Source: Mobula hypostoma (lineage: Eukaryota). From it: DNA of 64,000 nucleotides. The notes under the pieces were generated by a model. The model was not told the origin of the DNA, did not search any database, and saw only the letters and a program-made list of their open reading frames with translations. A program made the translations under genes and the position numbers. Where the stretch lies: the NCBI RefSeq assembly GCF_963921235.1, contig NC_086097.1:80292001-80356000 (forward strand). Reading direction: 5' to 3'. Below, piece after piece: positions 8,004 through 60,899 of this stretch (its first letter is position 1; each line of letters starts with the position of its first letter).

Positions 8004-9630
8004 TGTTATGTTCACTCACCTCTACCTACTGATGAGACCCCAAGCCAGACAGAAAATAGAACAGGCTAGAATTCAAAATAACCCTTTATTCATTAAAACT
8101 ACACTAGTCTCAAAACTCAAATCCAACTCACACTCCCTAGTATGATTATTTAGAAACAGGAACACAAAAAGCCTACAGCACAATATAGGTCCTTTGGCCC
8201 ACAAAGCTGTGCTGAACATGTCCTTATCTAAGAAATTACCTAGGGTAACCCATAGCCCTCTATTTTTCTGAGCTCCATGTACCTGTCCAGGAGTCTCTTA
8301 AAAGACTCCATTGTATCTGCCTCCACCACTGTCGCTGGGAGCCCATTCCACGCATTCATCACTCTCTGCGTAAAAAAACTTACCCCTGACATCTCCTCTG
8401 TACCGACTTCCAAGTACCTTAAAACTGTCCCCTCTTGTGCAAGTCACTTCAGTCCTGGGAAAAAGCCTCTGACTATCTACATGATCAATGCCTCTCATCA
8501 TCTTATACACCCCTATCAGGTCACCTCTCATTTCCATCGCTCCAAGGAAAAAAGGCTGAGTTCACTCAACCTATTCCCATAAGGCATGTTCCCCAATCCA
8601 GACAACATCCTTGTAAATCTCCTCTGCACCCTTTCTATGGTTTCCACATCCTTCCTATCGTGAGGTGACCAGAACTGAGCCCAGTACTCCAAGTGGGGTC
8701 TGACCAGGGTCCTATGTAGCTGCAACATTACCTCTTGACTTCTAAACTCAGTCCCACGATTGATGAAGGCCAATGCACCGTTTGCTTTCTTAACCACAGA
8801 GTCAACCTTCGCAGCAGCTTTGAGTGTCCTATGGATTCCGAACCCAAGATCCCTCTGATCCTCCACACTGCCAAGAGTCTTACCATTAATGCTATATTCT
8901 GCCATCATATTTGACCTACCAAAATGAACCACCTCACACTTATCTGGGTTGTACTCCATCTGCCACTTCTCAGCCCAGTTTTGCATCCTATCAATGTCCC
9001 GCTGTAACCTCTGACAGCCCTCCATACTATCCACAACACCCCCAACCTTTGTGTCATCAGCAAATTTACTAACCCATCCCTCCACTTCCTCATCCAGGTC
9101 ATTTATAAAAATCACAAAGAGTAGGGGTCCCAGAACAGATCCCCGAGGCACACCATTGGTCACCGACCTTCATGCAGAATATGACCCATATACAACCACT
9201 CTTTGCCTTCTGTGGGCAAGCCAGTTCTGGATCCACAAAGCAATGTCCCCTTGGATTCCATGCCTCCTTACTTTCTCAATAAACCTTGCATGGGGTACCT
9301 TATCAAATGCCTTGCTGAAATCCATGTACACTACATCTATCTACCTTCATCAATGTGTTTAGTCACGTCCTCAAAAAATTCAATCAGGCTTGTAAGGAAT
9401 GACTTGCCTTTGACAAAGCCATGCTGACTATTCCTAATCATATTATGCCTCTCCAAATCTTCATAAATCCTGCCTCTCAGGATTTTCTCCATCAACTTAT
9501 CAAGCACTGAAGTAAGACTCACTGGTTTATAATTTTCTGGGCTATCTCTACTCCCTTTCTGGAATAATGGAATAACATCTGCGACGGTCTAATCCTCCGG
9601 AACCTCTCCCATTCTCATTGATGATGCAAA

Positions 9631-10345: not shown

Positions 10346-12924
10346 CAAAGATTATTGCCAGAGGCTCAGCAATCTCCTCGCTTGCCTCCCACAGTAGCCT
10401 GGGGTACATCTCGCCTGGTCTCAGTGACTTATTCAACTTGATGCTTTTCAAAAGCTCCAGCACATCCTCTATCTTAATATTTACATGCTCAAGCTTTTCA
10501 ATCCACTGTAAGTCATCCCTATAATCGGCAAGATCCTTTTCCGTAGTGAATAACTGAAACAACCTACCCATTAAGTACCTCTGCTATCTCCTCTGGTTCC
10601 ATACACACTTTTCCACTGTCACACTTGATTGGTCCGATTCTCTCACGTCTTATCCTCTTGGATTTCACATACTTGTAGAATGCATTGGGGTTTGCTTTAA
10701 TCCTGTCTGCCAAGGCCCTCTCATGGCCCCTTCTGGCTCACCTAATTTCTTTCTTAAGCTCCTTCTTGTTAGCCTTATAATCTTGTAGATCTCTATCATT
10801 ACCTGGCTTTTTGAACCTTTCGTAAGCTCTTCTTTTCTTCTGACTAGATTTACAACAGCTTTTGTTCACCACGATTCCAGTACCCTACCATCCTTTTCCT
10901 GTCTCATTGGAACGTACCTATGCAGAGCTCCATGCAAATATCCCCTGAACATTTGCCACATTTCTTCTGTACATTTCCCTGAGAACATCTGTTCCCAATT
11001 TATGCTTCCAAGTTCTTGCCTGATAGCCTCATAATTCCCCTTACGCTAATTAAAAGCTTCCCTAACTTGTTTGTTCCTATCCCTCTCCAATGCTCTGGTA
11101 AAGGAGATTGAATTGTGATCACTATCTCCAAAATGCTATCTCCACTGAGGGACCTGACACCTGACCATGTTCATTTCCAGATCAAGTACAGCCTCTCCTC
11201 TTGTAGGCTTATCTACATATTGTGTCAAGAAACCTTCCTGAACACACCTAACAAACTCCACCCCATCTAAACCCCTTGCTCTAGGGACATGCCAATTGAT
11301 ATTTAGGAAATTAAAATCTCCCACCACAACAAACCTGTTATAAACCGTTTGCAGAATCTGTCTCCCTATCTCCTCCTTGATGTCGCTGTTACTATTGGGT
11401 GGTCTATAAAAAAGCACCCAGTAGAGTTATTGACCCCTTCCTGTTCCTAACTTCCACCCACACACACTCCATAGACAATCCCTCCACGTCTTCCTCCTTT
11501 TCTGCAGCCGTGACACTATCTCTGATCAACAGTGCCACACCCCCACGCCTTTTGCCTCCCTCCCTGTCCTTTCTGAAGCATCTAAAGCCTGGCACTCAAA
11601 GTAACCATTCCTGCCCCTGAGCCATCCAAGTCTCTGTAATGGCCACAACATCATAGCTGCAAGTACTGATCCATGCTCTTAGCTCATCCGCTTTGTTCAT
11701 AATACTCCTTGCATTAAAAATAGACACATCTCAAACCATCGATCTGAGTGTGTCCCTTCTCCATCACCTGCCCATCCTCCCTCTCGCACTGTCTCCAAGC
11801 TTTCTCAATTTGTGCCCAACTGCCTCTTCCTCTGTGTCACCAGTTTGTTTCCTACCCCCCAGCAATTCTAGTTTAAACTCTCCCGAATAGCCTTAGTAAA
11901 CCTCCCCGCCAGGATATTGGCCCCCTGGGATTCAAGTACAACCCGTTCCCTCTGTACAGGTCACTCCTGCCCCGAAAGAGGTCCCAGTGATCCAGAAATC
12001 TGAATCCCTGCTCCCTGCTCCAATCCCTCAGCCAGGCATTTATCCTCCACCTCATTCTATTCTTAAACTTACTGTCACATGGCACGGGCAGTAATCCCGA
12101 GATGACTACCTTTGTGGTCCTGCTTCTCAAATTCCTTCCTAATTCCCTGTAGTCTGCTTTCAGGACCTCCTCCCTTTTCCTGCCTATGTCGTTGGTACCA
12201 ATTTTTACCACAACCTCTGGCTCTTTTCCTTCCCACTTCAGGATATCTTGGACATGATCAGAAACATCCTGGACCCTGGCACCTGGGAGGCAAACTACCA
12301 TCAATGCTTCTTTCCTGCATCCACAGAATCGCCTGTCTGACTTTCTAACTATAGAGTTCCCTGTCACTGCTGCCATCCTCTTCCTTTCCCTACCCTTCTG
12401 TGCCACAGGGCCAGACTCTGTGCCAGAGGCACAGCCACTGTTGCTTCCCCCAGGTAGGCCATTCCCCCCCCAACAGTACTCAAACAGGGGTACTTATTCT
12501 TAAGGGGTAGAGCCACTGGGGTACTCTCTAGTACCTGACTCTTGCCCTTCTCCCTCCTGACTGTTACCCACTTATCTGTCTCCCCAGGGCCCAGAGTGAC
12601 TACCTGCCTATAGCTCCTCTCTATCACCTCCTCACTCTTCCTGAGCAGACGAAGGTCATCGAGCTGCATCTCCAGTTCCCTAACATGGTCCCTAAGGAGC
12701 TGCAGCTTGACGCACCTGGTGCAGATGTGGTCGTCCAGGAGGCTGGGAGTCTCCAGGACTTCCCACATCTGACACTGAGCACAGAACACCGGCCTCACAC
12801 ACATTCTTCCTGTCTGTATTCTACACAGGCAACCTACCTCACCTTGACCTCTTATCACCGAAGCCCCGTTGAGCCAAAGCCTTTCTACCTTGTTTCCCTC
12901 TACTCTGACACCTGCTCTATAAGT

Positions 12925-13389: not shown

Positions 13390-16300
13390 GTCAGGGAGCG
13401 GCCAATCAATGAGCGGAATTCATTGGAAAGGGCCAATAAAAATAACGCAACTGCAAGTGAGCTACAGTGACCAGGTCGCTGGCATTGAGTCTGGTGCTTA
13501 GAAGATTAGAGAAGTGAAGGGGACTACAGTGTCAGCAGAATAGAGATGAAATTCTGTGGATGTGATAGCGATACCCAGATGGTATGTTACCTCCTTGGTG
13601 CTAGAACAGGGATGTCTCGGTTCGGGTCTACAGCATTTTCAAGGATGAGAGTGAACAGCCAGAAGTCTTGGTGTATATTGGCACCAATGACATAGGTAGA
13701 CCAGGTGAGGAGGTCCTGAAGAGCGATTTTAGGGAGGTACATAAAAAATGAAAAATTGGACCTCCAGGGTAGTAATCTCTGGATCGTTTCCAGTGGCACA
13801 CACCAGTGAGGCTAAGAATAAGATGACTTGCAGGTGAATGCATGGCAGAGGAACTAGTGCAGCGGGTAGGGGTTCAGATTTACAGATCATTGGGAAATCT
13901 TCTGGGGAAGGTACGACCTGTACAAACGGGATGAGTCACACCTGAACACGAGGGGGGCAGGTTGGCTAGAGTTGTTCGGGAGGGTTTAAACTAATTTGGC
14001 AGGGGGATGGGAACCGAAGCGGTATGCTGAAGGTCAGGTAGTTGGTTTACAAATAGAGGCAATATGTAGTGAGACGCCTAGCAAGGAGAGGCAGATGATA
14101 GGGCAAATTTGCAGGCAACAGGATGAGTTGCAAAGTAAAAGGCAGACAAAATCAAATACAGTGCATACAGAACTGAAGGTGATATATTTTGATTGAGCGT
14201 AGTAGATGGAATAAGATAGGTGAGCTTGTAGCTCAAATGGTTCCATTTATTATCGAAGAGTGTATGCCGTATACAACCTGAAATACTTAAGTCTTCGCAG
14301 ATATCCACAAAAAAAAACATAAGAACCCCAAAAGATTGAAGAGCAGAAAAACATTAAAACCACAGCTCCAAGCAAGAACCCCTGCCCCATGCAAACAGCA
14401 GCAAACATCAACACACCAACCTGCCCCCACCCTCTCCCACCCATTTCAGCAAAAGAGCGTTTGTACCCACCACCCACTAAGCCACAGCAAAACATCCAAA
14501 GAGGGACCATGATCTACAGTCCACAAAAAACTATTGGTTACTGGGCAGTTCAACATGCCATAGGCGCTCTCTTTCTCACTAACAAAGGACAGAGAGATGT
14601 CACCCATTTCATAGCAAAAGGGGAAACCAACAAGCAGTCACTGTTAATGATACTACAGTCTGCCACAACGCTTTTTATTCCAAGATCCTCTGACTCAAGA
14701 ATCAGCAGCAAATTCTCCCTTCCACCGAGAGAAAGTGAGATTGCCTGACCTCAGAGACCTCTGTCTGCACATCTGCCGCAGCAAAATCCTGATGTTCCTT
14801 CTCATGCGATTCCTCAGTCGGCAACACCAGCCTGGAATCGATCATCCACAGGGATGTGCAGGGCCACACCCGGGAAGTGCCATCTTCTATGTCGTGTCTG
14901 GAGAATGTTGGAAAACGGTCAGCCGGCAAACTCCAGGAACAGGAACTCATCTGCCATTAAAAAAAAATGCAGTTTGAGTGCCATTGCAGATCAGGACCTC
15001 GATAAAACCCCAGCCACCTTGAAAAGGGGGAGAAAACATTAAACAGAGAACTTAAAGCTGTTTCTGCAGATGATTTCAAAGAGGCAGCCATTTGGTGCCA
15101 TTTTAACTGTACCCATTTACAAATTGTCATGTCTGATGTTGTAGGCATCTCTAAATCATGGCTGAAAGAAGATCATAACTGGGAGCTTAACTTCCAAGGA
15201 AACACATTGTATTGAAAGGACAGCTGGTAAGCAGAGAGGATGGCATGGCTCTGTTGGTAAAAATGGAATCCAGTCCTTAGAAAGAGGTAAGAAGGGGTCA
15301 GAAGGTATAGTATCGTTGTGAGTAGAACTGCAAGAGTAACAAGACCCCGACTGGAATTGTATACAGACCCCTAAACAGTAGTAAGGATATGGTCCAGAAA
15401 TTAGAATGAGAGATAGAAAATGCATGCCAAAAGGATGCAAAAGGATTACAATAGTCAAAGTGGATTTCAATATGCATGTAGATTGGGATGTTGGTGCAAG
15501 AGGGGGAGTTTGTAGAATGCCCATGAAATGGCTTTTTGGAGCAGCTCGTGGTTGAGCCCATTGGGAGATCAGCTATTCTGGGTTGGGTGCTGTGCAATGA
15601 AGCAGAAATGATTAGAGAGCTTAAGGAAAAAGAACCCTTAGGGGTATGTGATCATAATATGATCAAATTCACTCTGAAATTTGAGAAGGAGAAGCTTAAG
15701 TCAGATGTATCAGTATTATGGTGGAGTAAAGGGAATTACAGCTGAATGAGGGAGCAGCGGGCCAAAATTGATTAGAAAAGAACACTGGCAGGGATGATGG
15801 CAGAGCAGCAATGGCTGGAATTTCTGGAAGCAGTTTGGAGGGCACAGGAGGCATTAGTAAAGATCTTTCAAGAATCACTATAATCTGGAATGGTTCCGGA
15901 AGACTGGAAAATTGCAAGTGTCACTCCACACTTTAAGAAGGGAAAGAGGCAGATGGAAGGAAATTATAGGCCAGTTAGTCTGCCTCAGTAGTTGGGAAGA
16001 TGTTGGAGTTGATTGTTAAGGGTGTGGTTTCAGGGTACTTGGAGGCACATGATTAGATTGACTATAGTCAGTATGGTTTCCTCAAGGAAAATCTTGCCTG
16101 AGAAATCTGTTGGAATACTTCGAAGAATTACCAGGCAGGGTATTTAAAGGAGAATCAGTTGATGTTGTGTACTTGGATTTTCAGAGGACCTTTGACAGGG
16201 TGCCACATATAAGGTTGCTTAACAATTTAAGAGCCCATGGTACTACAGGAAAGATTCTAGCATGGATAAAGCAGTGGCCGATTGGCAGGAGGCAGAATAG

Positions 16301-17350
16301 GAATAAAGGGAGCCTTTTCAGACAGGCTGCAAGTGACTTGTGGTGTTCCACAGGGGTCTGTGTTGGGACTACTTTTTATTTTATATGTCAATGACTTGGA
16401 TGATGGAATTGATGGCTTTTTTGCAAAATTTGCAGATGATATGAAGATAGGTAGAGGGGCAGGTAGTTTTGAGAAAGTAGAGAGGCTAAAGAAGGACTTA
16501 GACGGATTAGGAGAATGGCCAAAGAAATGGCAGATGGAATATAGTGTTGGGAGGTGTATGGTCCTGCACTTTAGTAGAAGAAATAAAAGGGTAGACTATT
16601 TTCTAAATAGAGAGAAAATTCAAAAATCAGAGATGCAAAGGGACCTGGGAGTCCTTGTGCAGGATTCCTTTAAGGTTAATTTGCAGGTTGAGTCTGTGGT
16701 GAGGAAGGCAAATGCAATGTTATTTCAAGAAATTCAAGAAATTCATTTCAAGAGGACTGAATATAAAAGCAAGGATGCAATGTTGGGACTTGAAAAAGCA
16801 CTGGTGAGGCCTCACTTGGAGTATTGTGAGCAGGTTTGGGTCCGTTACCTTACAAAGGATATACTGAAACTTGAGAGGGTTCAAAGGAGGTTCACAAAAA
16901 TGATTCCAGGATTGGAGGGTTTGAAGAGAATTTGATGGCTCTGGGCCTGTATTCACTGGAATTCAGAAGAATGAGGAATGATCGAATTGACACCCATCAA
17001 ATTGTGAAAAACCTTGATAAAGTGGAGGCAGAGAGGATGCTTCCTATGGTGGGAGAGTCTCAGACCAGTAGACATAGCCTCAGAATAGAGGGGCATCCTT
17101 TTAGAACAGAGTTGAGGTGGAAATTATTTCACTAGTAAATGGCATATCTGTGGAATTCTTTGCCACAGGCAGCTGTGGAGGCCAAGTCTTTATGTATATT
17201 TAAGGCAGAGGTTGATAGATTCTTGATTAGTCAGGGCATGAAGGGATATGGGGAGAAGGCAGGAGACTGGGGCTGAGAGAAAAAAATGGATCAGCCATAA
17301 TGAAATGGCAGAGCAGAATCAATGGGTACAATGGCCTAATTCTGCTCCTA
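13390..17350 (+). mobile_element. Second, older CR1 LINE family (esterase ORF1 remnant, APE, RT)
   Basis: Esterase-like IGTNDIGR coding near 13677-13700; APE remnants at 15140-15750; ORFs 16110-16935 YLDFQRTFDRVPH, GVPQGSVLG, KFADD; 3' end ggcctaattctgctccta. Confidence 0.9.
14232..15108 (-). mobile_element. Non-coding non-autonomous element with a Rex/Babar-like tail, inserted in the CR1
   Basis: Minus strand begins aaaatggcaccaaatgg and ends ttcaggttgtatacggcatacactcttcgataataaatggaacc; interrupts the CR1 APE region. Confidence 0.55.
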
Positions 17351-18596: not shown

Positions 18597-18962
18597 TAAT
18601 GCATAAGATGATGAGAGGCATTGATCGTGTGGATAGTCAGAGGCTTTTCCCCAGGGCTGAAATGGCTAGCATGAGAGGGCACAGTTTTAAGGTGCTTGGA
18701 AGTAGGTACAGAGGAGATGTCAGGGGTAAGTTTTTTTTATACGCAGAAAGTGGTGAGTATGTGGAATGGGCTGCCGGTGATGGTGGTGGAAGCGGATGCG
18801 ATAGGGTCTTTTAAGAGACTCCTGGATAGGTGCATGGAGCTTAGAAAAATAGAGGGCTATGAGTAACCCTCGGTAATTTCTAAAGTAAGGACATGTTCGG
18901 CACAGCTTTGTGGGCCGAAGGGCCTGTATTGTGCCATAGGTTTTCTATGTTGCTATGTTTCT
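18597..18962 (+). mobile_element. CR1 3' fragment, same family as 8150-13103
   Basis: KMMRGIDRVDSQRLFPRAEMASMRGHSFKVLGSRYRGD, with a (ctatgttt)-type tail. Confidence 0.9.
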
Positions 18963-19475
18963 AATAGTGTGTGTATGAACTATGGTACTGGACAGATCTA
19001 GCATAATCTATCCTACCGTCCTAACTTGCTTCTCTCACTTCTTACTTCTTCAAATTCCTTTTGGTCATGAAAAGTCAGAGTTCAGCTTGTATCATGCTGA
19101 TCATGATTGTCCCCATTTCTACCTGGTTGTTTCCAAACATGGAAACACAATGACAATGATGTGGCTGGATTGAAATGGCACTGACAAATGGTCTGATTTC
19201 AGACCTTTTCACTCAATCGCCCATGGAACTGCCTCAGGATCCCAGTGCATAACTAAAATAAAATATAGTCCCTAGAAAGGAAGCAGTCACAAGTATGTTT
19301 TGAATTTCATAACTAAGTTTCACACAACAAAGGAATATCCAAAGGCTGCCACCCCTATGATAATGATTATCCAGCCTGGTAGTTCTGACATTAGAAGTGA
19401 AATGAATTGCCAGCTTTACCTATGTTAAATGAGAGGTATTTTGGCCAGAACTTTAGCAAGGTTTAGTATACAATA

Positions 19476-20135
19476 GAATTGAATTGACTTTATTTCTTAC
19501 ATCCTTCACATACATGAGTAAAAATCTTTATGTTACGCCTCCATCTGAATATGCAATGTGCAATCATAGTAATTTATAATAATTTATTATAATTTATAAT
19601 AAATAGAACAATCAGTGCAACATAGAGTGCACTCAAATCAGCGTGAGTTCATCAGTCTGATGGCCTGGTGGAAGAAGCTGTCCCGGAGCCTGTTGGTCCT
19701 GGCTTTTATGCTGCGGTACTGCTTCCCGGATGGTAGCAGCTGGAATAGATTGCGGTTGGGATGGCTTGGGTCACCAATGATCCTATGGGCCCCTTTTACA
19801 CAACTGTCCTTGTAAATGTCCTGAATAGTTGGAAGTTCACATCTACAGATGCGCTGGGCTGTCCACACCACTCTCTGCAGAGTCCTGCGATTGAGGGAGG
19901 TACAGTTCCCATACCAGGCAGTGATGCAGCCAGTCAGGATGCTCTCAATTGTGCCCCTGTAGAAAGTTCTTAGAATTTTGGGACCCATGCTGAACTCTTT
20001 CAACTTTCTGAGGTGAAAGAGGTGCTGTTGTGACTTTTTCACCACACATCCGGTAAATACAGACCACGTGAGATCCTCGGTGATGTTTATGCCAAGGAAC
20101 TTAAAGCTGCTCACACTCAACCCCAGATCCACAGA
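19476..20135 (-). mobile_element. Rex1/Babar LINE 3' fragment
   Basis: ORF 19638-20201 SFKFLGINITEDLTWS...IESILTGCITAWYG...LLPSGKQYRS...DSFFHQAIRLMN, with a (tcaat)n tail near 19477. Confidence 0.9.
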
Positions 20136-21109
20136 TGTCCTGTCCAGTGCCTGTGGAGGGAAGGAGTACTGAATTAGGGTTTCAACCCAAAATGTCAACA
20201 ATTCCTTTCTCCCCAGCAGATCCTGCTTGAGCTGCTGAGTTCCTCCAGAAAATTCTTTGTTTACCGTCGACAGTACTTCTATGTGCTTGGAAGTTTTCTG
20301 TTAACATATTTTTAGTTAGTATTCTTTTTTTTAGTAGCTTTTTAAAATGTAACTTTGATGCTTGTGGCAGACATCAAAGCATGGTTGGGGTATTGCCGTC
20401 TGTCAAAGGGTTCCAGATGGTTTCTATTAACGTGGATTGATTTGACGCCTCCACATCAGCAGTCCATTATATTGTTCATGGTCCTGCTGTCACTCAGGAA
20501 TATCAGGGACAGTGAGTGTGGCTTCCTGGATCTGGAGAGAATGTATTTGTGTGAAAATGGAGGGATGCTATGGTAGATGGGGTGTGCTTCTCTCAGGAAA
20601 ATCAAAACCAAATTATTTCTAACAAGACTACTCAGTGCTCTGTTGTAATCTGACATTCTATATTCTAGATCTACCCACAACCCAACTGTTATTGAATTTC
20701 TTCAGTTTGGAACATCTTGAGAGGGATGAGCAAATCACAATTTAAAGAAAATTATTCTGCTACAGTATATTCAAAATACAGAATGTCAGGGTTGTCCTGT
20801 TAGAAATAATCACATTTCTTTACAACAGGTTCACTTTTCACGATGCTCTTTAAAATCTTTTTCATCATTGATTTTTAGTTTGCCTCTCATGGATTGTGCA
20901 TCTGTTTTCCTTAACATCTGGAGCAGTCAGATATTTACCTATGTTAAATATATTGTATTAATTAAAATTTCTGTTGTGTTTTTGGAAAGTATTTTATCAT
21001 GTCATGTAAGCAATTTACTTTTCATGATTTACATTTAAATAGATAAGTTTTCATTTGAATTCAACAACAACTCAATTACACACAGTTGCCTGCTGAATAA
21101 TCTTTCATT

Positions 21110-22580: not shown

Positions 22581-25500
22581 AAGTGTTGCCAACTGTCACA
22601 TATTCCCCCCGCTAAGGTAGAGCGTTCCTAAGAAAACATTCGTGCCGAAATGCTTTATGCAGAAGAAGCGATGTATATGGAAAAAATTTTTGTGCGTTCC
22701 CAGAGCCAAAAAAATAACCTACCAAATCATACCAAATAACACATAAAACCTAAAATTGTCACAATGGGATGGCATTAGGAGCAAGGGTGGACCCAAATGC
22801 AAGACACATCTTGTGAGGTTACTTAAATTTAGTTTATTGTTTGAAACCAGGAGAGCAAGGCAGGAGTAGGAATAGTGAACTGAACAAGGACTGAGGACTA
22901 CAACTAGGCTGGGACCAAGGGTCTGGGCTAGGACTCGGAATCGGCTCCCAGAACTAGAGGAGACATGAGGAGGCTAGGGTATGGACTCTGAGCCAGAGAC
23001 TGGGCAAGGACCCAGTACCTGGGTCTTGCCTGGGGCTCGGACCCCAGAACCAGGCATGGACATGACATGGGCGAGGGAGAGGAGGAACATGGGAACACAG
23101 AGCCTCGGTCTCGGGAGAGCAGGTACATGGAACCATGGACACATACACAGAACACAGAGCCGGGACCCCTCCTTGGGTACAGGACATAGGGCCGGGACTC
23201 ACACACAGAACAGAGAGCTGGGACCCATCCTTGGGTACAGGACATAGGGCCAGGGCTCATGACTCGTGACCCCCCGTGGGGCAACGGCAAGACGGCCTGA
23301 CTTACCCCATGGAGGCGAGGACAAGACACGACAAGACATGATCCCTGTGGGGCAACGGCAAGACGGCCTGACTTACCCCACGGAGGCGAGGACAAGACAC
23401 GACCAACACGAAAGAACACCAGACAGTAGGACAGGAATCACAGACCACCAGGGCCAGGACTTGACTCGGAACGTGGTTGCCGCCAGGGGCAGGACTTGAC
23501 TCGGTACTTGAATGCCGCCGGAACCAGGACTTGACTTGGAGCCTCCGGGTAGTGGCGAGCTCTCAACTCGGCCCGGGAACAGTAGATAGCGGTTCCTGAT
23601 TCCTTCCAGCAGGTTAACTGACGGACCCACCTTAGTGAGGAAAATGTGCAGGCTCGCTTTGGTGAGGTTACTTGACAGGGTTGCTCCGGTGAGGAAAAGC
23701 AAATTACCGGCACTCGCTTTGGGTGGAGACTAGGCTTGCTGCGGCCAGATAACATTGGCACGCCGTACCTTAGTGACTTTGCAAATGATCTCGCGCCGAA
23801 CAGCTGAAAGCTGGAGACTATAAACTACTGGTTCAGTCGAGAGTAAATTGCCTCTAATCACCAAGGCCAAGGGATACGGGAAAACAGGGAACCAAAGGGA
23901 AACAGGGAGTCAACGGTCCGGATCATAACATAAACAAAATAAATTTAAAGGGACCCCGATCTGGACCATGACAGTACCCCCCGCTCAATGGGAGCCTCCA
24001 GGTGACCAACAGATTTGCCTGTATTATCGATGACCCGGGTGAGTGGGAGGGATTTGGCTGGTGGGCAAAACAGAACAACACCTTGACTTTCAGGCTGACA
24101 AGAGTTTGGAAAAACAGTTTGTGTCTGCTGGGTCCACGTTTGGCGAAAGTGTTCTATCACAATGGGATGACATTGGGAGCAAGGGTGGACCCAAATGCAA
24201 GACACATCTTGTGAGGTTAATTAGATTTAGTTTATTGTTCGATATCAGGAGAGCAAGGCAGGAGCAGGAATAGCGAACTGGACAAGGACTCAGGACTACG
24301 GCTAGGCTGGGACCAGGGGTCTGGGCTTGGACTCGGAATTGGCTCCCAGAACTAGAGGAGACATGAAGAGGCTACAGTATAGACTCCGAGCCAAGGACTG
24401 GGCAAGGACCCAGTACTTGGGTCTTGTCTTGGGCTCGGACCCCAGAACCAGGCAAGGACATGACATGGGCTAGGGAGAGGAGGAACATGGGAACACAGCG
24501 CCTCGGTCTCGAGAGAGCAGGTACATGGAACCATGGACACATACACAGAACACAGAGTCAGGACCCCTCCTTGGCTACAGGACATAGGGCCGGGACTCAC
24601 ACACAGAACAGAGAGCCGGGACCCCTCCTTGGGTACAGGACATAGGGCCGAGACTCATGACTCATGACCCCCCCGTGGGGCAACGGCAAGATGGCCTGAC
24701 TTACTCCATGGAGATGAGGATAAGACATGACAAGACATGCCCCCCCCCCGCGGAGCAACGGCAAGACGGCCTGACTTACCCCACGGAGGCGAGGACAAGA
24801 CACGACCAACACGAAAGAACACCAGACAGTACCTATCTAGCTCCGGTGATAGAACTAGACCGAGGTGCATGCGAGGGCTGAAGACGAGGGCTAGAGGCGA
24901 GAGGGGCAGAGAAGGGATTCAGACGGGAGTAAGAGAGGAATCACAGACCGCCAGGACCAGGACTTGACTCGGAACTTGGATGCCGCCAGGGCTGGGACTT
25001 GACTTGGTACTTGGATGCCACCAGGGCCAGGACTTGACTTGGAGCCTCCGGGTAGTGGCGAGCTCTCGACTCGGCCCGAGAATAGTAGACAGCGGTTCTT
25101 GATTCCCTCTGGCGGGTTAACTGACGGACCCACCTCGGTGAGGAATCTTTGCAGGCTCGCTTTGGCGAGGTAACTTGACAGGGTTGCTCTGGTGAGGAAA
25201 GGCAAACTACCGGCACTCGCTTTGGGCAGAGACTAGGCTTGCTCCGGCCTGATGACATTGGCATGCCGTACCTTTGGTGACTTTGCAAACGCTCTCGCGC
25301 CGAACAGCTGAAAGCCGAGGCTATAAACTACCGGTTCAGCCGAGAGTAAATTGCCTCTAATCACCAAGGCCAAGGGATACGGGAAAACAGGGAACCAAAG
25401 GGAAACAGGGAGTCAACGGTCCAGATTGTAACATAAACAAAGTAAATTTAAAGGGACCCCGATCCGGACCATGACAAAAATGACACTAACATATAGTAAA

Positions 25501-28728: not shown

Positions 28729-29058
28729 TAGAAGTCAGAGACCTCAATAAGAGCAATGGCTGTAGTTTGACTTTTAGCATTTGAAACAGCAAGTACATTG
28801 GTATTTTCAATTTTGGTAAATTCAATTAAGAACAGTTGTTTCTCAGACCAGTGAGGCTGAAAATCTGATGGGAGACTGTTTTTGCATGATGTCACTTGAT
28901 AAAATTTTATTCAAGGAAGTAATGCAACGGGGGAGTAAAGTTGCATCAAGAAATGAGAAGGGACGTTTACTGAAGGGGCTTAGGTATGTAAAGTGAGTGT
29001 ATAATTATAAATAAACTCTCTTTTTGGGCTTCCAGCCAGGTACAGGGATCGATTATAG

Positions 29059-29097
29059 CCGACATTTCGATGACAAGCTCTGCCATCTTCTTCAGGG
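29059..29097 (-). ncRNA. Minimal type-I hammerhead ribozyme motif in the Poseidon-type pLTR
   Basis: Minus strand reads cc-CUGAAGA-a-GAUGGCA-gagcu-UGUCAUC-GAAA-ug-UC-gg: full core and a 7-bp stem II, but stem I is only 2 bp. Confidence 0.6.
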
Positions 29098-31907
29098 ATG
29101 ATGCCTGGGCGTCCAGTTGAGTGGTATTTATACCACCATAGTCATCCCTCCTGATTGATAGTCCTCATCCAATCAGGTTTCCACCCTCCCATGTTGTTTA
29201 TAATCGAATTCCAGTTCTTACTTGGAGTGAGAATTTTGTATTTGTTAAAACTTTTTTTCCTCTAGTTTTATTTCAATGACTTTCTTTACCAGGCAGTCCC
29301 AAAAGTCATTGGCATGGCACTGTAGTTTTGTGCCATCGAAGTCGATCCAATTGCCATTGTGAATGCAGTGGTCTGCTACCGCTGATTTCACCGGATAACA
29401 GCTCCTGTGCTCCTTGATGCGAGTTTCCACCGTGAGTCCAGTCTGGCCAACATATGCCACTCTGCATTCACAGGGAATCCTGTAAATGCCAGCGGACCCG
29501 AGTCCCAGGTCATCTTTGATTCGCGTAAGCTGTGACTTGAGCTTTCTTATGGGTTTGTGGATGGAATTAATTCAGTATTTCTTCAGGATCCTGGTGATCC
29601 TTCCAGAAACTGTGGAAATTAGGGAATACAGGCGGTAGTGATGGTTCCTCCTCATTGTTAAGTTACCTGATTTTTCTGCCAGCCCTTTTCAGGGCCGATT
29701 GATTTCCTTCACATTCTGTAGGATCATCATGCATAATTGTCTCGGGGAGACTCTCTGGGCCCAAAATAGTTTTCACATGGTTAATCAAGATAGAAAGAAC
29801 CGCTCTACATTGGGAGGTGTGATGGTGGCTGTTATTGTTGAGTTATAAGTCCGTGTGAGTAGGTTTCCAACAGATGCTATGTCCAAGGCTACCGTCCAGT
29901 TTCTATCGCATTAAGATGTCCAAGAACAGGAAGCAACCATTCTTCTCCATCTCCATCATAAATTGAATGTTTGGATGGATGCTGTTCAGATGGTCATGGA
30001 ACTGCTGGAGTGCTGGTGACCCTGAGGCCACATGATGAAGGTGTCATGGACATATCTGAGGAAGCATTTGGGACATAAGGGTGATAAACTCAGAGCCCTC
30101 TCCTCAAAGTCCTCCATGTAGAAATTAGCAATAGCCAGCAACAAGGGTGACCCCATGGCCACTACTTCTGTTTGTTCATGGTAGTCCCCCTTGTAGAGGA
30201 AGTACGTCGCTGTAAGGGTGTGTTCATGAAGGTACCCTTATCTAACCACGATCACGAGAGGACCAAGCTGTCCTTAATGGGAGCTCTTGTGAACAGGGAC
30301 ACCACATTGAAACTCACCATTATGTCGTCCGGGTTCAGCTAGTTGAAATCAGTCAAATTTGTGACGTGATTCTCACAGCCCCCAACAAAGGGAGACAGCA
30401 TGGTTATCATATGTTTAGCAAGGCAGTAAGTCAGAAAATCTATCGCACTGATGATAGGCCTCAGGGGGGAACCTTCCTTGTGTATCTTAGGGAGCCTGTA
30501 AAGTCTTGGTGGTTCCGGCAGTATGTGTCTGCTGGCAGCCCAGATTTCTTCAGTAAAGCAGAGGTCATCCTGACAATCAAAACTATGGGACCCCGCTGTA
30601 GAACTCTGTAGGCAGGATTGTCCAGAATCTGTTGGACTTTCCTGTGATATTCCTTGGACAACATCAGGACCATTGCATTTCCTTTGTCCGCTGGTAAAAT
30701 CATGATGGCTGGGTTTCACCGTGGTGCCTGGAGGGCCAGTCGCTCTCCTTTTGTAATGTCCAGTTTCGGCAAAATGGCTCTTTTTAGGGCAAGGTAACCT
30801 CCATCCTTACCTCCTCCGTAGTATCCGTTGGGAGTTTTCAGGTTGCTTGCTCTACTCCGCCAGTGTGGTCCCAATAAAGTATGGCCCAGGGGACTGGAGT
30901 GAAGTTTAACCCCTTGGCGAGGACCGATCTAGTCGCTTTGTTGATGCTTCGTCCTGTTTGATTGATGACAATCCTTTCTGGGTCCAATGGTGGGATGGCT
31001 GCACTTCAACTGGATAGTTTGATGTATTTCCTGACATGCTTTGGTCATATTCCTTCATGAAACTAGTTCACCTTGGGCAGCTGTGGACCTGTCAATGTAC
31101 TCCCAATCACCAGGAGACAAGAAGGCTGACAGTCCCAGGTGAAGGGACAATCATCTGTTCGCGTTGATGTCCAGAGCAGATCTAATGTAATGGATACACT
31201 CCCTGATCAACACTCGGCCAGTTCATCATAGATTGTGTTAAGCCTCTGGAGAAATCAGCGTGGAACGCAACCTCACGAACATAGGAATGATGTCCTTGCC
31301 CCAGCATCTCAGAAGGAAGGCTAAAGGACAAAGAATCCTTGCCTTCTCTTTATACAATGATTCAAAACGATGGATATTGCGGTGAACTACCTTCCCATAG
31401 AGGTAAGTGAAAAAGGATCTACTGCTTTCCTGGCGTATATGAACTCTTCTTGGGCTTCCAACCACGTACAAATATTGATTATAACCAAAGATTCGATGAT
31501 AAACTCTGCCATCTTCTTCAGGGATGATGCCTGGGCAAGTCTAGTCCGGTGGCATTTATAACCTTGTGTTCCATCCCTCCTGATTGGTTAGTCCTTATCC
31601 AATCAGGTTTCCGCTCTCCAACATTGTTTACAATCGAATTCCAGTTCTTACTTAGAGCGAGACCTTTGTCTTTGTTAAAACTCTTTTCCTCTAGTTTTAT
31701 TTCAATGTCTTCCTTTACCAGGCAGTCCAAAAAGCCATTGGCATGGTACAATGGTTTTGCGCTGTCAAGGTCAATTCTATGGCCATTGCAAAAGTAGTGT
31801 TCCGCTATCACTGATTTCTCTAGGTAATCCAAATAGATACACCTCTTGTGCTCCTTGATGCGGATTTCCCACCACATGTCCCGTCGGGCCCGATATATGC
31901 TGCTCCA

Positions 31908-32460
31908 TATTGGACATGGTGGAGGATTACAAATATCTGGGGATACGAATTGACAATAAACTGGACTGGTCAAAGAACACTGAGGCTGTCTATAAGAAGG
32001 GTCAGAGCCGTCTCTACTTCCTGAGGAGACTGAGGTCCTTTAACATCTGCCGGACGATGCTGAGGATGTTCTACGAATCTGTGGTGGCCAGTGCTATCAT
32101 GTTTGCTGTTGTGTGCTGGGGCAGCAGGCTGAGGGTAGCAGACACCAAAAGAATCAACAAACTCATTCGTAAGGCCAGTGATGTTGTGGGGATGGAACTG
32201 GACTCTCTGACGGTGGTGTCTGAAAAGAGGATGCTGTCCAAGTTGCATGCCATCTTGGTCAATGTCTCCCATCCACTACATAATGTACTGGGTGGGCACA
32301 GGAGTACATTCAGCCAGAGGCTCATTCCACCGAGCTGCAGCACAGAGCGTCATAGGAAGTCATTCCTGCCTGTAGCCATCAAACTTTACAACTCCTCCCT
32401 TGGAGGGTCAGACACCCTGAGCTGGAGATCAATAAAGTATGACTATGACTATGACTATAT
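31908..32460 (+). mobile_element. Young Rex1/Babar LINE 3' fragment inserted in the Penelope element
   Basis: Uninterrupted frame YKYLGIRIDNKLDWSKN..RLYFLRRLRSF..SFLPVAIKLYN, then aataaa and a (tatgac)n tail. Confidence 0.9.
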
Positions 32461-32546
32461 TTACAAGAGATCCTGTAAACGCCAGCTGACCCGACTCTCA
32501 AGTCATCTTTGACCCACATAAACTGTGGCTTGAGCTTCCTTATGAT

Positions 32547-33677
32547 TTATACCTCAACAATAACAGCCACTATCACACCTCCCAATGTATTTTTGTTTTT
32601 TTTCTACTTTGATTAAATAAGATTATTATCCACAATGTTCCTACAGAATGGTTACAATGTTAAGGAAATCAGTTGGACCATTAAAAGGGCTGATGGAAAA
32701 ACCAGGAAACCTAACAATGAGGAGGATCCGTTGCTACCTCCTATCTTCCCTATATTTCCATTATTTTTGGAATAATCCCCAGGGTCCTGAACAAATACCA
32801 TCCACAAACCCGTAAGGAAGCTCAAGTCACAGCTCATGCGGGTCAAACGTGACCTGGTTTCAGGGTGGCTGGTGTTTACAGAATTCCCTGTCAATGCAGA
32901 GCAGTGTATATCAGCCAGCTGGGACGCACAGTGGAAACCCGCATCAAGGAGCACAGGAAGTGTACCCGTTTGGGTTACCCAGAGAAATTGCCAGTAGCAG
33001 AGTACTGCATTCGCAATAGTCATAGGATTGACTTCGATGAGCCAATGACTGGTAGAGGAAGCCATTGAAATAAAACGAGAGGAAGAGTCTTAACAAAGAT
33101 GAAGCTCTCGCTCTAAGTAAGGACTGGAATTCGATTGTAAACAAGATGGGAGAGTGGAAACCTGATTGGATAAGGACTAACCAATCAGAACGGATGGAAT
33201 GCAGGGGTATAACTACCACTGGACTAGACTTGCCCCGGCATCATTCTTGAAGAAGTTCTTGGTTCTTGGTTCTTGGTTCTTGATCCTCCAAAATATTCTG
33301 CATGGAATTTAAACTGGGGGTGGCGGAGGGTGGGCTTAAGAAGCAGATTTTTGAAGAAGAAAAGCTGCCTTAAATTTAATTGGGTTTGGTTGTGTGACTG
33401 TGTTAGGATTAAGATTATTCCATGCTATAATTGTGCGGGGGAAAAATGAATTGCTGTACACATCTAACTTGGTAGTTAGTATCTCAAATTTAGTTGAGTG
33501 CCCTCGTCTGCTCCTAATAGGTTTGGGTTTGATGTGGGATTGGTAGTCTATGTTGAGTTGACCATTTAACATTTTGTAAAGTTGGCTAAGTTTATCATTG
33601 AAACATCAGTTATAATTGATACTTGCACCCGGCTGGAAGCCTGAGAAGAGTTTACTCGTCATATGTGCCGGGAAAGG
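32547..33677 (+). mobile_element. Inverted 3' copy of the Poseidon-type Penelope element
   Basis: Reverse-complement similarity to 29012-29850; ORF 32865 AGVYRIPCQCRAVYISQLGRTVETRIKEH (GIY-YIG). Confidence 0.85.
33256..33580 (-). mobile_element. CR1/L2-group LINE 3' end with (ccaagaa)n tail, inserted into the pLTR
   Basis: ORF 33336-33572 RSRRGHSTKF..YSNSFFPRTIIAWNNL; ttcttgg repeats at about 33256-33282. Confidence 0.7.
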
Positions 33678-34567: not shown

Positions 34568-36547
34568 GTCAGATGCTGTTTCTGGATTTCAGTTCAGTAT
34601 TTAACACTATTGTACCCCAGACCTTAATCAACAAACTACTTCTCCTTGGTCTAAAACCAAGTAGGTCAAATATGATGGCAGAATATAGCACTAATGGCAA
34701 GACTCTTGGCAGTGTGGAGGATCAGAGGGGTCTTGGGGTCCGAGTCTATAGGACACTCAAAGCTGCTACACAGGTTGACTCTGTGGTTGAGCAGGGATAT
34801 GGTGTATTGGCCTTCATCAATCGTGGGATTGAGTTTAAGATATATAGCACCCTGTTGCATCTATCTAGCACCCTGGTCAGACCCCACTTGGAGTACGGTG
34901 CTCAATTCTGGTCACCTCACTATAGGAAGGATGTGAAAGCTATAGAAAGGGTGCAGAGGAGATCTACAAGGATGTTGCCTGGATTGGGAAGCATGTCTTA
35001 CGAGAATAGGTAGAGTGAACTTGGCCTTTTCTCCTTGGAGCGACGGAGGATGAGAGGTGACCTGATAAAGGTGTATAAGATGATGAGAAGCATTGATTGT
35101 GTGGATAGTCAGAGGCTTTTTCCCAGGGCTGAAATGGCTAGCATGAGAGGGCATAGCTTTAAGGTGCTTGGAAGTAGGTACAGAGGAGATGTCAGGGGTA
35201 AGTTCTTTACGCAGAGAGTGGTAAGTGCGTGGAATGGGCTGCCAGTGGCAGTGGTGGAGGCAGATACGATGGGGTCTTTTAAGAAACTCCTGGATGGATA
35301 CATGGAGCTTAGAAAAATAGAGGGCTATGGGTAAGCCTAGGTAGTTCTAAGGTAGGGACGTGTTCGGCACAGCCTTGTGGGCCGAAGGGCCTGTATTGTG
35401 CTGTAGGTTTTCTATGTTTCTATGTTTCTTAAAACCACCACTATGTAACTGGGTGTTGGACTTCCTAATGAGCACACCCCAGGTAGTCAGGATGAACAAC
35501 TCCTCACTCCCCATCATCCTCAACAAGGACAAGGGGACCCCCAAGGCTGTATGCTGAGCCCATTGCTGTATACGCTACTCACTCATGACTGCATGGCCAA
35601 ACTCCCGCACAAGCACACCATCGCGTTCACTGATGACATAGCAGCGGTGGGGCTCAGCACCAACAGTGACAAGATGGCCTACAGAGAGGAGATGGAAGAG
35701 CTCAAGGACTGATGTCAGGCAAATAACCTCCTCGACAAGGCAAAGGGGATGGATATCAACTTCAGGAGAGCTCGCACCATTCACACCCCTCGTTACACTG
35801 GCAACACAGCAGTGTAAACCACAAGCAGTTTCAAACTCCTGGGAATTCACAACACACATATCCTCTCATGGTCTCAGAACACATCCTACACAGTCAAGAA
35901 AGCTCACTAATGCCTCTCTTTTCTGAGGAGACTGTTGAGAGCAGGACTTTGCACATATTCATGTTATTCTACCGATATACAGTAGAGAGCATCCTGACAA
36001 GCTGCATTACTGCTTGGTACAGAAACTGCACTGTGGTGGACAGGAAGGCTCTGCAACGGGTAGTCAAAACTGCCCAAAGCATCACCGGCACCAGCCTACC
36101 GCCATCAAGGACATATATACAGAAAGGTGCAGGAAAAGGGTCATTAACATCATGAAAAACCCTATTTACCTTGTTCATGGACTGTTTGTCCCAGTCCCAT
36201 TAGGGAGGAGGCTATGTCAGGACCACCAGACTCAAAAACAGTTACTTTCCCCAAGCAATAAGACTGATCAAAACCTCCACTCACTAACTCCACCACTATT
36301 TTATTATTTCCTGTGAGTTACCTTACGTACAGCCTTGCATCACTTTATGGACGTACAAGCAATCTAGGTAGACAAGATATCTTGTGTATTTATATGTATT
36401 TGTATGTTTTATTATTAATATTATTATAGTGTTCTCTATCTTTTGTCGTTTATTTTGTGCTACATCGGATCTGGAGTAACAATTACTTCATTCCCCTTTA
36501 CACTTGAGTGCCAGAAATGACATTAAACAATCTTCAATCTTGAATCT
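34568..36547 (+). mobile_element. Rex1/Babar LINE fragment (RT and 3' end), split by a CR1
   Basis: MLFLDFSSVFNTIVPQTL at 34574; GTPQGCMLSPLLY-like and FTDD near 35530-35640; FYRYTVESILTSCITAWY; tail attaaacaatcttcaatcttgaat. Confidence 0.85.
34660..35429 (+). mobile_element. CR1 3' fragment with 8-bp TSD
   Basis: Matches 8150-8920 in reverse; TSD taaaacca at 34652-34659 and 35430-35437; (ctatgttt)n tail. Confidence 0.92.
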
Positions 36548-40640: not shown

Positions 40641-41222
40641 GGTAGAGTAGACAGGGAGAGGTGGTAGAGAGGAGGTAGAGAGGACAGGGAGAGGAGGTAG
40701 AGAGGACTGGGAGAGGAGGTAGAAAGGACTGGGAGAGGAGGTAGAGTGGACTGGGAGAGATGGTAGAGAGGACAGGGAGTGGAGATAGAGAGGACAGGGA
40801 GAGGAGGTAGAGAGGACGGTGAGGCAGTAGAGAGGACAGGGAGAGGAGGTAGAGAGGACTGGGAGTGGAGGTAGAGAGGACTGGAAGAGGAGGTAGAGTG
40901 GACTGGAAGAGGAGGTAAAGAGGACTGGGAGTGGAGGTAGAGTGGACTGGATGAGGAGGTAGAGAGGACTGGGGGAGGCGGTAGAGTGGACTGGGAGAGG
41001 TGGTAGAGAGGACAGGGAGAGGAGGTAGAGAGGACTGGGGAGGCGGTAGAGTGGACTGGGAGAGGTGGTAGAGAGGACAGGGAGAGGAGGTAGAGAGGAC
41101 TGGGGGAGGAGGTAGAGAGGACTGGGGGAGGCGGTAGAGAGGACAGGGAGAGGAGGTAGAGAGGACTGGGGGAGGCGGTAGAGAGGACAGGGAGAGGAGG
41201 TAGAGAGGACTGGGGGAGGCTT
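40641..41222. repeat. Purine-rich minisatellite, ~22-bp unit gtagagaggactgggagaggag, about 26 copies
   Basis: Directly visible tandem array with variant units. Confidence 0.95.
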
Positions 41223-43084: not shown

Positions 43085-43292
43085 TTGTTTATTTTGTGCA
43101 GGAGGAGGGATTTGTGGTCGATGTACCTGTTCCATTCTGATGTTATTTTGTGCGGGGAGGGGGGATTTGGGGGTCGATGTGCCTGTTCCATTTTTGTTCA
43201 TTTTTTTTTGGGTGGGAGGAGGGATTTGGCGGTTGATATGCCTGTTTCATTTTGTATGTCTTTTTTATGTAGGGAAAGGGAATTTGGGAGAG
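43085..43292 (+). repeat. Three to four degenerate ~55-60 bp tandem units, probably within a non-autonomous LINE-tail element (about 43018-43340)
   Basis: Unit ttttgtgc..gagggatttg..ggtcgatgt.cctgttccatt is repeated. Confidence 0.65.
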
Positions 43293-60794: not shown

Positions 60795-60816
60795 CACACA
60801 TACATACACACACACA

Positions 60817-60899
<83 letters not shown>
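60795..60899. repeat. (CA)n microsatellite, about 50 units with interruptions
   Basis: Directly visible. Confidence 0.98.

What the first reader, a model, noticed from the sequence alone, without database searches (positions are those of the whole stretch)
24143..25327. tRNA-independent self-priming signature in the mini-LTR element
Seen: the PBS position (24154-24143, minus: GAACACUUUCGC) does not start with TGG. It can pair with GCGAGAGCGUUU (25298-25287, minus) with 9 Watson-Crick pairs, 2 G-U pairs and 1 mismatch at a likely CpG-decay site. That partner starts 29 nt downstream of a TTTATA box (25327-25322), where a TSS is expected. Established: Tf1/sushi-group elements prime reverse transcription with their own mRNA 5' end. 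Inference: a non-autonomous self-priming element that would need to close a loop of about 1.1 kb.
Basis: partly seen in the sequence, partly recalled or inferred. Interest (0 to 1): 0.75.

Follow-up and report, generated by a model that had tools for sequence, protein, structure and literature searches.

The report
Gene-less self-priming sushi-type retrotransposon
This is an old, decayed copy of an abundant gene-less jumping element whose primer site pairs with a stretch of its own end-repeat instead of a tRNA end, so it likely started copying itself with its own RNA, a trick already known from yeast Tf1 and its fish relatives.

Summary
Observation confirmed and refined. A 2,720-bp LTR element (minus strand, 25476-22757) has a 5-bp target duplication, 1.2-1.3-kb LTRs and a 181-bp interior made of the gag start and pol end of a chromodomain-bearing Gypsy family in the same genome. 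Its primer site lacks TGG in 81 of 81 junctions. Its best complement in the LTR starts 29 nt after TTTATA. The conserved duplex is 10-11 bp (24153-24143 with 25298-25288); the mismatch and inner G-U are decay in this copy. Gene-bearing relatives and sibling mini-families keep the pairing at the same place with different letters, and a U5-leader stem like Tf1's 'pretzel' flanks the site. One extra: a PBS variant that turns the family's G-U into G-C is frequent (17 of 65) and scattered on the copy tree, as expected if reverse transcriptase copied the self-primer; the copy-by-copy association is not significant. The transcription start is unmapped. Host tRNA-Phe nt 18-28 pairs 10/11 with the PBS but leaves no footprint (0 of 65). 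Self-priming is known for Tf1/sushi elements, and the scan noted it before on other DNA, including this genome. Variant of a known kind.

The parts
22757..25476 (-). whole non-autonomous LTR element, 2,720 bp
   Evidence: ends TG...CA (5' LTR of this copy ends TA by a private change); other copies of the host repeat lack the insert (loose ends equal the right flank)
25477..25481 (-). left target-site duplication ATTTT
22752..22756 (-). right target-site duplication ATTTT
24155..25476 (-). 5' LTR, 1,322 bp
   Evidence: K2P distance to the 3' LTR 0.091 over 1,215 columns
22757..23973 (-). 3' LTR, 1,217 bp (lacks about 100 bp present in the 5' LTR)
25322..25327 (-). TATA-like box TTTATA, 29 nt before the predicted start
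   Evidence: AT-rich boxes at -29 to -32 in related families; function inferred
25288..25298 (-). predicted RNA 5' end and self-primer (11 nt, GCGAGAGCGTT in this copy)
   Evidence: best complement of the PBS in the LTR; start site not mapped
24231..24236 (-). only AATAAA of the LTR; implies a long R (about 1.08 kb) and a short U5 (about 60 nt)
   Evidence: cleavage site not mapped (uninformative)
24186..24206 (-). 5' arm of the U5-leader stem
24160..24175 (-). short hairpin CAATG/CATTG at the LTR end (U5-IR-like)
   Evidence: predicted only
24143..24153 (-). primer-binding site, 11 nt, after a one-base G spacer at 24154; two private changes in this copy (24150, 24147)
24120..24136 (-). 3' arm of the U5-leader stem; also the remnant of the gag start
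   Evidence: 25 of 28 identical to the gag start of L258/L088
23974..24054 (-). remnant of the pol 3' end just behind the chromodomain region, ending in the polypurine tract
   Evidence: 81 of 102 identical to L258, E 8e-18; also L253, L254, L255, L261
23977..23986 (-). polypurine tract GAGCGGGGGG, 3 nt before the 3' LTR
24535..25043 (-). tandem duplications (35-, 58- and 75-bp units) that make up part of the long R

Best explanation
This is a decayed copy of a gene-less LTR retrotransposon derived from a sushi-type chromovirus, and its family likely primed reverse transcription with the first 10-11 bases of its own RNA, as Tf1 does. Inferred cycle: transcription starts about 29 nt after TTTATA (25298); a helper chromovirus supplies Gag and Pol; a U5-leader stem holds the PBS open in a loop; the RNA's 5' end, about 1.1 kb upstream, pairs with it; the helper's RNase H cuts at the end of the duplex; the freed piece primes minus-strand DNA. 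Plus-strand synthesis would then copy the primer into the PBS of some progeny, which would explain the recurrent T-to-C variant that repairs the family's G-U pair. Shown: anatomy, copy family, pairing, covariation between families, origin of the interior. Inferred: start site, cleavage, helper identity, primer copying, and whether the pairing is within one RNA.
For: (1) No TGG in the first 8 nt after the LTR in 81 of 81 distinct junctions. (2) Copies pair better than this one: 9 or more of 11 positions in 42 of 64 5' LTRs and 44 of 67 3' LTRs; the commonest PBS pairs 11/11 with this window's own 5' partner. (3) Gag-bearing loci: junction called in 21 of 30; the complement just behind an AT-rich box was the top hit in 16, second in 2, absent in 3, with four different PBS sequences. 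(4) Sibling mini-families with homologous LTRs (67-72% identity) have other PBS letters and matching changes at the same LTR place (AACGGTCTAGC with GCTAGACCGTC; AACGATCTAGC with ACTAGATCGTC). Read across families, at least five of 11 positions change on both sides. (5) U5-leader stem: z -3.87, 0 of 200 shuffles; 1,071 of 1,106 cells paired in 79 copies; both arms change together in other families (read by eye). Tf1's three-duplex 'pretzel' is described in bioRxiv 2022.12.06.519325. (6) Interior derives from elements with gag, RT, RNase H, integrase, SH3_Tf2-1 and Chromo domains. (7) PBS position 8 is C in 17 of 65 hits of a search with the PBS left free (hand count; 17 of 61 distinct stored junctions) against 2 of 65 at position 6 (p 3e-4) and 2 or 4 of 46 at T positions of the perfectly paired gene-bearing family (p 0.002, 0.026); it needs 18 changes on a 66-copy tree (shuffles 16.9), whereas primer position 4 needs 5 (shuffles 12.2, 0 of 300 as low). 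For tRNA-primed retroviruses the progeny PBS is inherited from either primer or genome (PMC4549124).
Against: No start-site, cleavage or poly(A) data. The match alone is reached by 14-23 of 300 shuffles somewhere in the LTR. Primer nt 11 is C opposite A in 101 of 131 LTRs, so the usual duplex is 10 bp, not Tf1's 11. The C8 variant is not significantly tied to a G at primer position 4 copy by copy (15 of 51 against 2 of 15, p 0.32); two copies with A in both LTRs carry C8, and 16 of 53 in the G4 clade is below the 50% that simple templating predicts (p 0.005). The copy tree is star-like (7 of 63 inner branches well supported). Families share letters, so some non-cognate pairs also reach 10-11 of 11. 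The junction fold reaches z -2 or lower in only 11 of 22 junctions; most gene-bearing group A and B copies do not. No coding element with this family's own LTR was seen, so the helper is unidentified.
Confidence: 0.85

Rival explanations
1. Sub-case of the best explanation: the same duplex forms between the two RNAs packaged together, so no 1.1-kb loop has to close and R is free to grow.
For: Primer-to-PBS distance varies freely in this family (341-1,732 nt, median 1,174, 64 copies) against mostly 145-431 nt in gene-bearing relatives. Two copies with A at primer position 4 carry C8, which a partner RNA with G4 could have templated. LTR elements package RNA dimers (PMC7175516).
Against: Sequence cannot separate the two routes. 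The stems that present the PBS are local and work either way. Length variation may also come from deletions and insertions after integration (L075's 1,258 nt is due to an insert in its 5' LTR).
Confidence: 0.3
2. A 5' fragment of host tRNA-Phe ending near nt 28 primes the element; the LTR match is incidental.
For: tRNA-Phe(GAA) nt 18-28, GGGAGAGCGTT, pairs 10 of 11 with the commonest PBS. Half-tRNA priming exists in some copia lineages (PMC6317226).
Against: Copying that primer would put C at PBS position 10: 0 of 65, while the change that fits the self-primer is at 17 of 65. Related families have other PBS sequences, each with its own LTR partner. The match lies inside the D arm, not at a tRNA end; 3' ends of the tRNAs in hand pair at most 6 of 11.
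Confidence: 0.04
3. The pairing is a relic inherited from the coding ancestor and was not used by the mini-element, which spread by another primer (for example the helper's RNA end) or partly by DNA-level duplication.
For: Some copies sit in tandem arrays or share identical junctions (L026/L027, L048-L050, L207/L208). The family tolerated a G-U and a terminal A-C mismatch.
Against: The mini PBS differs from that of every gene-bearing family seen and pairs best with its own partner (10-11 of 11 against 4-9); sibling mini-families changed both sides together; dispersed solo LTRs have their own 5-bp duplications (19 of 30 exact), the mark of integrase.
Confidence: 0.07

Closest known systems
Tf1/Tf2 of Schizosaccharomyces pombe (self-priming shown by experiment)
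   Same: PBS right after the 5' LTR, complementary to about 11 nt at the predicted RNA start; flanking duplexes of the 'pretzel' type (PMC7175516 and bioRxiv 2022.12.06.519325, passages).
   Different: No genes; the usual duplex is 10 bp with a G-U; primer and PBS lie about 1.15 kb apart (Tf1's whole LTR is about 360 bp, recalled); nothing tested by experiment here.
Vertebrate Tf1/sushi chromoviruses (sushi-ichi, V-clade; Butler et al. 2001, not read, cited through)
   Same: Interior derives from gag and pol ends of chromodomain-bearing Gypsy elements; AATAAA close to the LTR 3' end and T-rich U3, as reported for Sushi LTRs (PMC3601003; U3 38% T); self-priming signature.
   Different: Non-autonomous, with LTRs about seven times longer than the interior; no RT tree was built, so placement in the V-clade rests on domain content and host.
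TRIMs (terminal-repeat retrotransposons in miniature)
   Same: Non-coding interior of about 180 bp with PBS and polypurine tract; solo LTRs and tandem arrays.
   Different: TRIMs are under 1 kb with 100-250-bp repeats and a tRNA-complementary PBS (PMC6934838); this element is 2.7 kb, has 1.2-1.3-kb LTRs and no tRNA PBS.
Primer-dictated PBS polymorphism of HIV/SIV (PMC4549124)
   Same: A recurrent single-base PBS variant explained by copying the primer into the plus strand.
   Different: There the primer is a variant host tRNA; here it would be the element's own RNA end, and the reading is inferred from genomic copies only.

Membership tests
LTR retrotransposon (non-autonomous) | Two LTRs with TG...CA ends, target duplication, PBS position and polypurine tract, dispersed copies | tested here: met
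   560 LTRs match one strict 22-letter pattern
Tf1/sushi group | No tRNA-type PBS (no TGG after the LTR) | tested here: met
   0 of 81 junctions
Tf1/sushi group | PBS complementary to a stretch of the own 5' LTR at the expected start site | tested here: met
   covariation across families
Tf1/sushi group | That stretch is the true 5' end of the RNA | tested here: inconclusive
   only contigs of runs guessed to be RNA were available; they cannot show a start
Tf1/sushi group | Flanking duplexes ('pretzel') around the PBS | tested here: met
   U5-leader stem, (prediction, not probing); the second, short hairpin is weaker
Tf1/sushi group | RNase H cleavage after nt 11 creates the primer | not testable with these tools
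   sequence suggests 10 nt in most copies (A-C mismatch at nt 11 in 101 of 131 LTRs)
Tf1/sushi group | Chromodomain integrase in the element or its parent | tested here: met
   not in this element; Chromo and SH3_Tf2-1 in L254, L261 (L255 Chromo below cut-off), whose gag start or pol end match the interior
Tf1/sushi group | Placement in the clade on an RT-integrase tree | not tested
   no reference sequences fetched, no tree of RT built
TRIM | Under 1 kb with 100-250-bp terminal repeats | tested here: not met
   2,720 bp, LTRs 1,322 and 1,217 bp; definition from PMC6934838
TRIM | PBS complementary to a tRNA 3' end | tested here: not met
Half-tRNA-primed elements | PBS complementary to the end of a tRNA fragment | tested here: inconclusive
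   only four tRNA types in hand (Lys, Phe, Cys, Thr; 33 sequences); tRNA-Phe nt 18-28 pairs 10/11 but its diagnostic base is in 0 of 65 PBS

The most novel reading that the evidence does not exclude
The recurrent C at PBS position 8 is a fossil print of reverse transcriptase copying the element's own RNA 5' end: direct genomic evidence that a vertebrate sushi-type lineage self-primed, with a mostly 10-nt primer, across more than a kilobase of R, in a gene-less passenger. The same count could serve as a general sequence test of which primer any extinct LTR family used.
Probability: 0.55. Interest if true: 0.6.

Novelty: new variant of a known kind. Interest (0 to 1): 0.4.

Why it matters
Self-priming has been shown by experiment in fission yeast; for vertebrate sushi elements it is inferred from complementarity. 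This family adds covariation across several lineages of one genome and, more usefully, a possible footprint of the primer in the progeny's PBS, which can be tested on genome sequence alone. It also suggests that priming tolerates a kilobase between primer and PBS and needs no match to the helper's own primer, which would let gene-less passengers diversify. The mechanism itself is not new, and this copy is an old fossil.

Tried and rejected
No RNA holder listed: the run search gave nine contig sets, eight only guessed to be RNA; laying five of them on the 5' LTR or the LTR end showed no start, end or poly(A) tail, which contigs cannot show. Folding the whole 1.2-kb leader does not pair primer with PBS, but that pairing crosses the U5-leader stem (a pseudoknot), which the program cannot draw, so it is no test. 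Sampling by the A-type primer gave mostly solo LTRs (4 of 30 with a junction), too few for a strong copy-by-copy test. A coding element with this family's LTR was looked for among PBS-pattern hits: seven checked copies without the normal interior were interrupted by unrelated DNA or continued as minis, none ran into gag. The Rfam tRNA search returned mostly tRNA-Lys, so a full tRNA set was not tested; the genome-wide tRNA-like pattern covered only the A-type complement (53 hits, all reading as tRNA-Phe). A short extra pairing between the bases after the primer (GTCAC) and the LTR end (GTGAC) was seen but is too short to claim. In-25 locus L072 was read on the wrong strand by a slip and is one of the nine uncalled loci; L086 and L087 are near-identical and count as one. 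The partner of L008's 5' LTR was mis-anchored (one of 64). Literature: eight searches found no paper on a non-autonomous self-priming vertebrate element or on primer-templated PBS change in Tf1-type elements; the library lacks most subscription papers, including the original Tf1 and sushi papers, so this is not proof of absence.

Full report
The observation. On the minus strand 24154-24143 reads GAACACTTTCGC and 25298-25287 reads GCGAGAGCGTTT; TTTATA starts 29 nt before 25298. The two pair with 9 Watson-Crick pairs, 2 G-U and 1 mismatch. The partner is the best complement in the 5' LTR. Shuffles reach that score somewhere in the LTR in 23 of 300 (12-mer) or 14 of 300 (11-mer) trials, and at a rate of 4-6 x 10^-4 within a 10-nt window. 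So the place of the match, not its strength, makes it unusual.

Anatomy. The element runs 25476-22757: 5' LTR 1,322 bp, interior 181 bp, 3' LTR 1,217 bp, flanked by ATTTT on both sides. Contigs that cover the left flank run straight into the right flank, so other copies of the host repeat lack the insert. The LTRs differ by 0.091 (K2P): an old copy. The only AATAAA lies at 24236, so if transcription starts at 25298 then U3 is 178 nt, R about 1.08 kb and U5 about 60 nt; R holds tandem duplications of 35, 58 and 75 bp. AATAAA near the LTR end and a T-rich U3 are reported for Sushi LTRs (PMC3601003, passages).

Family. The genome is 3.48 Gb in 200 contigs; earlier AI notes call it a ray, which I did not test. 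The junction query had 2,259 candidates, 40 scored; one strict LTR pattern has 560 matches. Of 30 LTRs sampled by the partner sequence, 19 were solo LTRs with an exact 5-bp duplication, 2 with 4 of 5, 4 belonged to two-LTR elements and 5 were unresolved. From all family loci fetched I got 81 distinct junctions (part of the sample was selected by PBS letters). The interior is 151-232 bp in 58 measured. None has TGG in the first 8 nt; 80 have a single G between LTR and PBS. The commonest PBS is AACGCTCTCGC and the commonest partner GCGGGAGCGTC: 10 pairs with one G-U, and an A-C mismatch at nt 11. An outlying group of copies, near which this copy sits, has A at partner position 4 and often T at 11; the window's 5' partner is the exact complement of the commonest PBS. 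The window's mismatch and inner G-U are private changes (G in 77 and C in 76 of 81).

Origin. A search with the DUF4939 gag profile found many gag-bearing elements (2,121 candidates, 150 scored, 30 fetched). Ten were extended. Pieces of L253, L254, L255, L259 and L261 hit Retrotrans_gag, RVT_1, RT_RNaseH, integrase, SH3_Tf2-1 and Chromo (11 of 12 pieces hit a family). The mini's first 38 interior bases match their gag start and its last 80 match their pol end. It is therefore a deletion derivative of a chromovirus. In vertebrates these are the sushi/V-clade elements (PMC6317226 and bioRxiv 2022.12.06.519325, passages); no RT tree was built.

Covariation. For 21 of the 30 gag loci a junction could be called; the PBS complement just behind an AT-rich box was the top hit in 16, second in 2 and missing in 3. 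The pairs differ: AACGATCTGGC/GCCAGATCGTT, AACGAACTGGC/GCCAGTTCGTY, TACGATTGAGC/GCTCAATCGTA (two copies of one group), AATGTGTGAAC/GTTCACTCATC. Boxes lie at -29 to -32 in 9 of the 13 loci listed before the extra family copies. Sibling mini-families with LTRs 67-72% like this one changed both sides at the homologous place. This is the strongest evidence. Caveat: families share letters, so some cross pairs also score 10-11 of 11; the mini PBS scores 10-11 with most mini partners and 4-9 with the others.

Structure around the PBS. U5 (24206-24186) pairs with the leader (24136-24120), z -3.87, leaving the PBS in a loop beside a small hairpin. In 79 copies 1,071 of 1,106 cells pair (no double changes within the family). 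Other families change both arms, but only 11 of 22 junctions reach z -2. Tf1 needs a three-duplex structure of this kind and is cut between bases 11 and 12 (PMC7175516, passages). The primer duplex crosses the stem, so ordinary folding of the full leader cannot show it.

A possible footprint of the primer. In tRNA-primed retroviruses progeny inherit the PBS from either primer or genome (PMC4549124, first half of the text). If the self-primer is copied, the G-U at PBS position 8 should be repaired to C again and again. With the PBS left free in the search, C8 is in 17 of 65 family hits (hand count), against 2 of 65 at position 6, 0 of 65 for C at position 10, and 2-4 of 46 at T positions in the perfectly paired gene-bearing family. 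On a tree of 66 copies built without PBS and partner, C8 needs 18 changes (shuffles 16.9) while partner position 4 needs 5 (12.2). Against: the tree is star-like; the association with G4 is 15 of 51 against 2 of 15 (p 0.32); two A4 copies carry C8; 16 of 53 is below one half. An old polymorphism spread by recombination is not excluded. I put primer copying at about 0.55.

tRNA rival. Host tRNA-Phe nt 18-28 pairs 10 of 11 with the commonest PBS. It is internal, its diagnostic base is in 0 of 65 PBS, and it cannot explain the other families. Only four tRNA types were compared directly.

The loop. Primer to PBS is 341-1,732 nt (median 1,174) in 64 copies, 539-1,442 nt in sibling minis, and mostly 145-431 nt in gene-bearing relatives. 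The long span is real and heritable. Whether it is closed within one RNA or bridged by the second packaged RNA cannot be told from sequence.

RNA. No raw RNA reads were available; contigs gave no start or end.

Known or new. Self-priming in the Tf1/sushi group is established; TRIMs are the known gene-less small LTR elements, but they are under 1 kb and tRNA-primed (PMC6934838, passages). PMC5006619 (passages) added only background. Butler 2001, Levin 1995-97 and Atwood-Moore 2006 were not read. The scan has noted the same kind of element before on other DNA, once in this genome (e1-8034992); a look-up by sequence found nothing. Verdict: a real, well-supported signature in a gene-less variant of a known group; interest 0.4, higher if the primer footprint holds at genome scale.

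Noticed in passing
window 24236-24186 (minus): The GT-rich stretch just after AATAAA is also the 5' arm of the U5-leader stem, which can form only at the 5' LTR. It could hide the downstream poly(A) element there and stop early termination after the long R. Untested idea.
   Followed up: no
L183, L185-L187, L213-L221 (for example G000:C50:40853313, C1:35644653, C22:4567106): At least two sibling mini-families with short interiors, long repeat-filled LTRs and their own PBS/partner pairs; some form tandem arrays.
   Followed up: partly
L258 (same element as L088): A deleted gag-bearing element whose 3' end skips the chromodomain and matches the mini's interior over 102 nt at 79%; a possible intermediate between coding element and mini.
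   Followed up: partly
L021 and L028: Two unrelated copies carry both changes (positions 1 and 8) that make the PBS the exact complement of an 11-nt primer; the other C8 copies keep A at position 1, as if the primer were usually 10 nt.
   Followed up: partly
window 26616-25480 and 22750 downwards (minus): The element is inserted in a high-copy repeat; a frame at 26164-26616 hits the Spin-doc zinc finger (PF18658), which suggests a DNA-transposon remnant.
   Followed up: partly
window 8149-8919, 18600-18964, 34661-35432; 11873-12490; 16270-16932; 19641-20300; 29018-33255: LINE fragments (RVT_1, GDSL/SGNH esterase-type ORF1, ALKBH8_N-type C-terminal hits) scattered through the window.
   Followed up: no
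window 40656-41219, 43086-43287, 60795-60899: An 11/22-bp purine-rich minisatellite, a 59-bp tandem repeat and a CA microsatellite.
   Followed up: no
G000:C67:53.38-53.69 Mb and C90:4.02-4.33 Mb: Large clusters of tRNA-Phe and tRNA-Lys genes.
   Followed up: no
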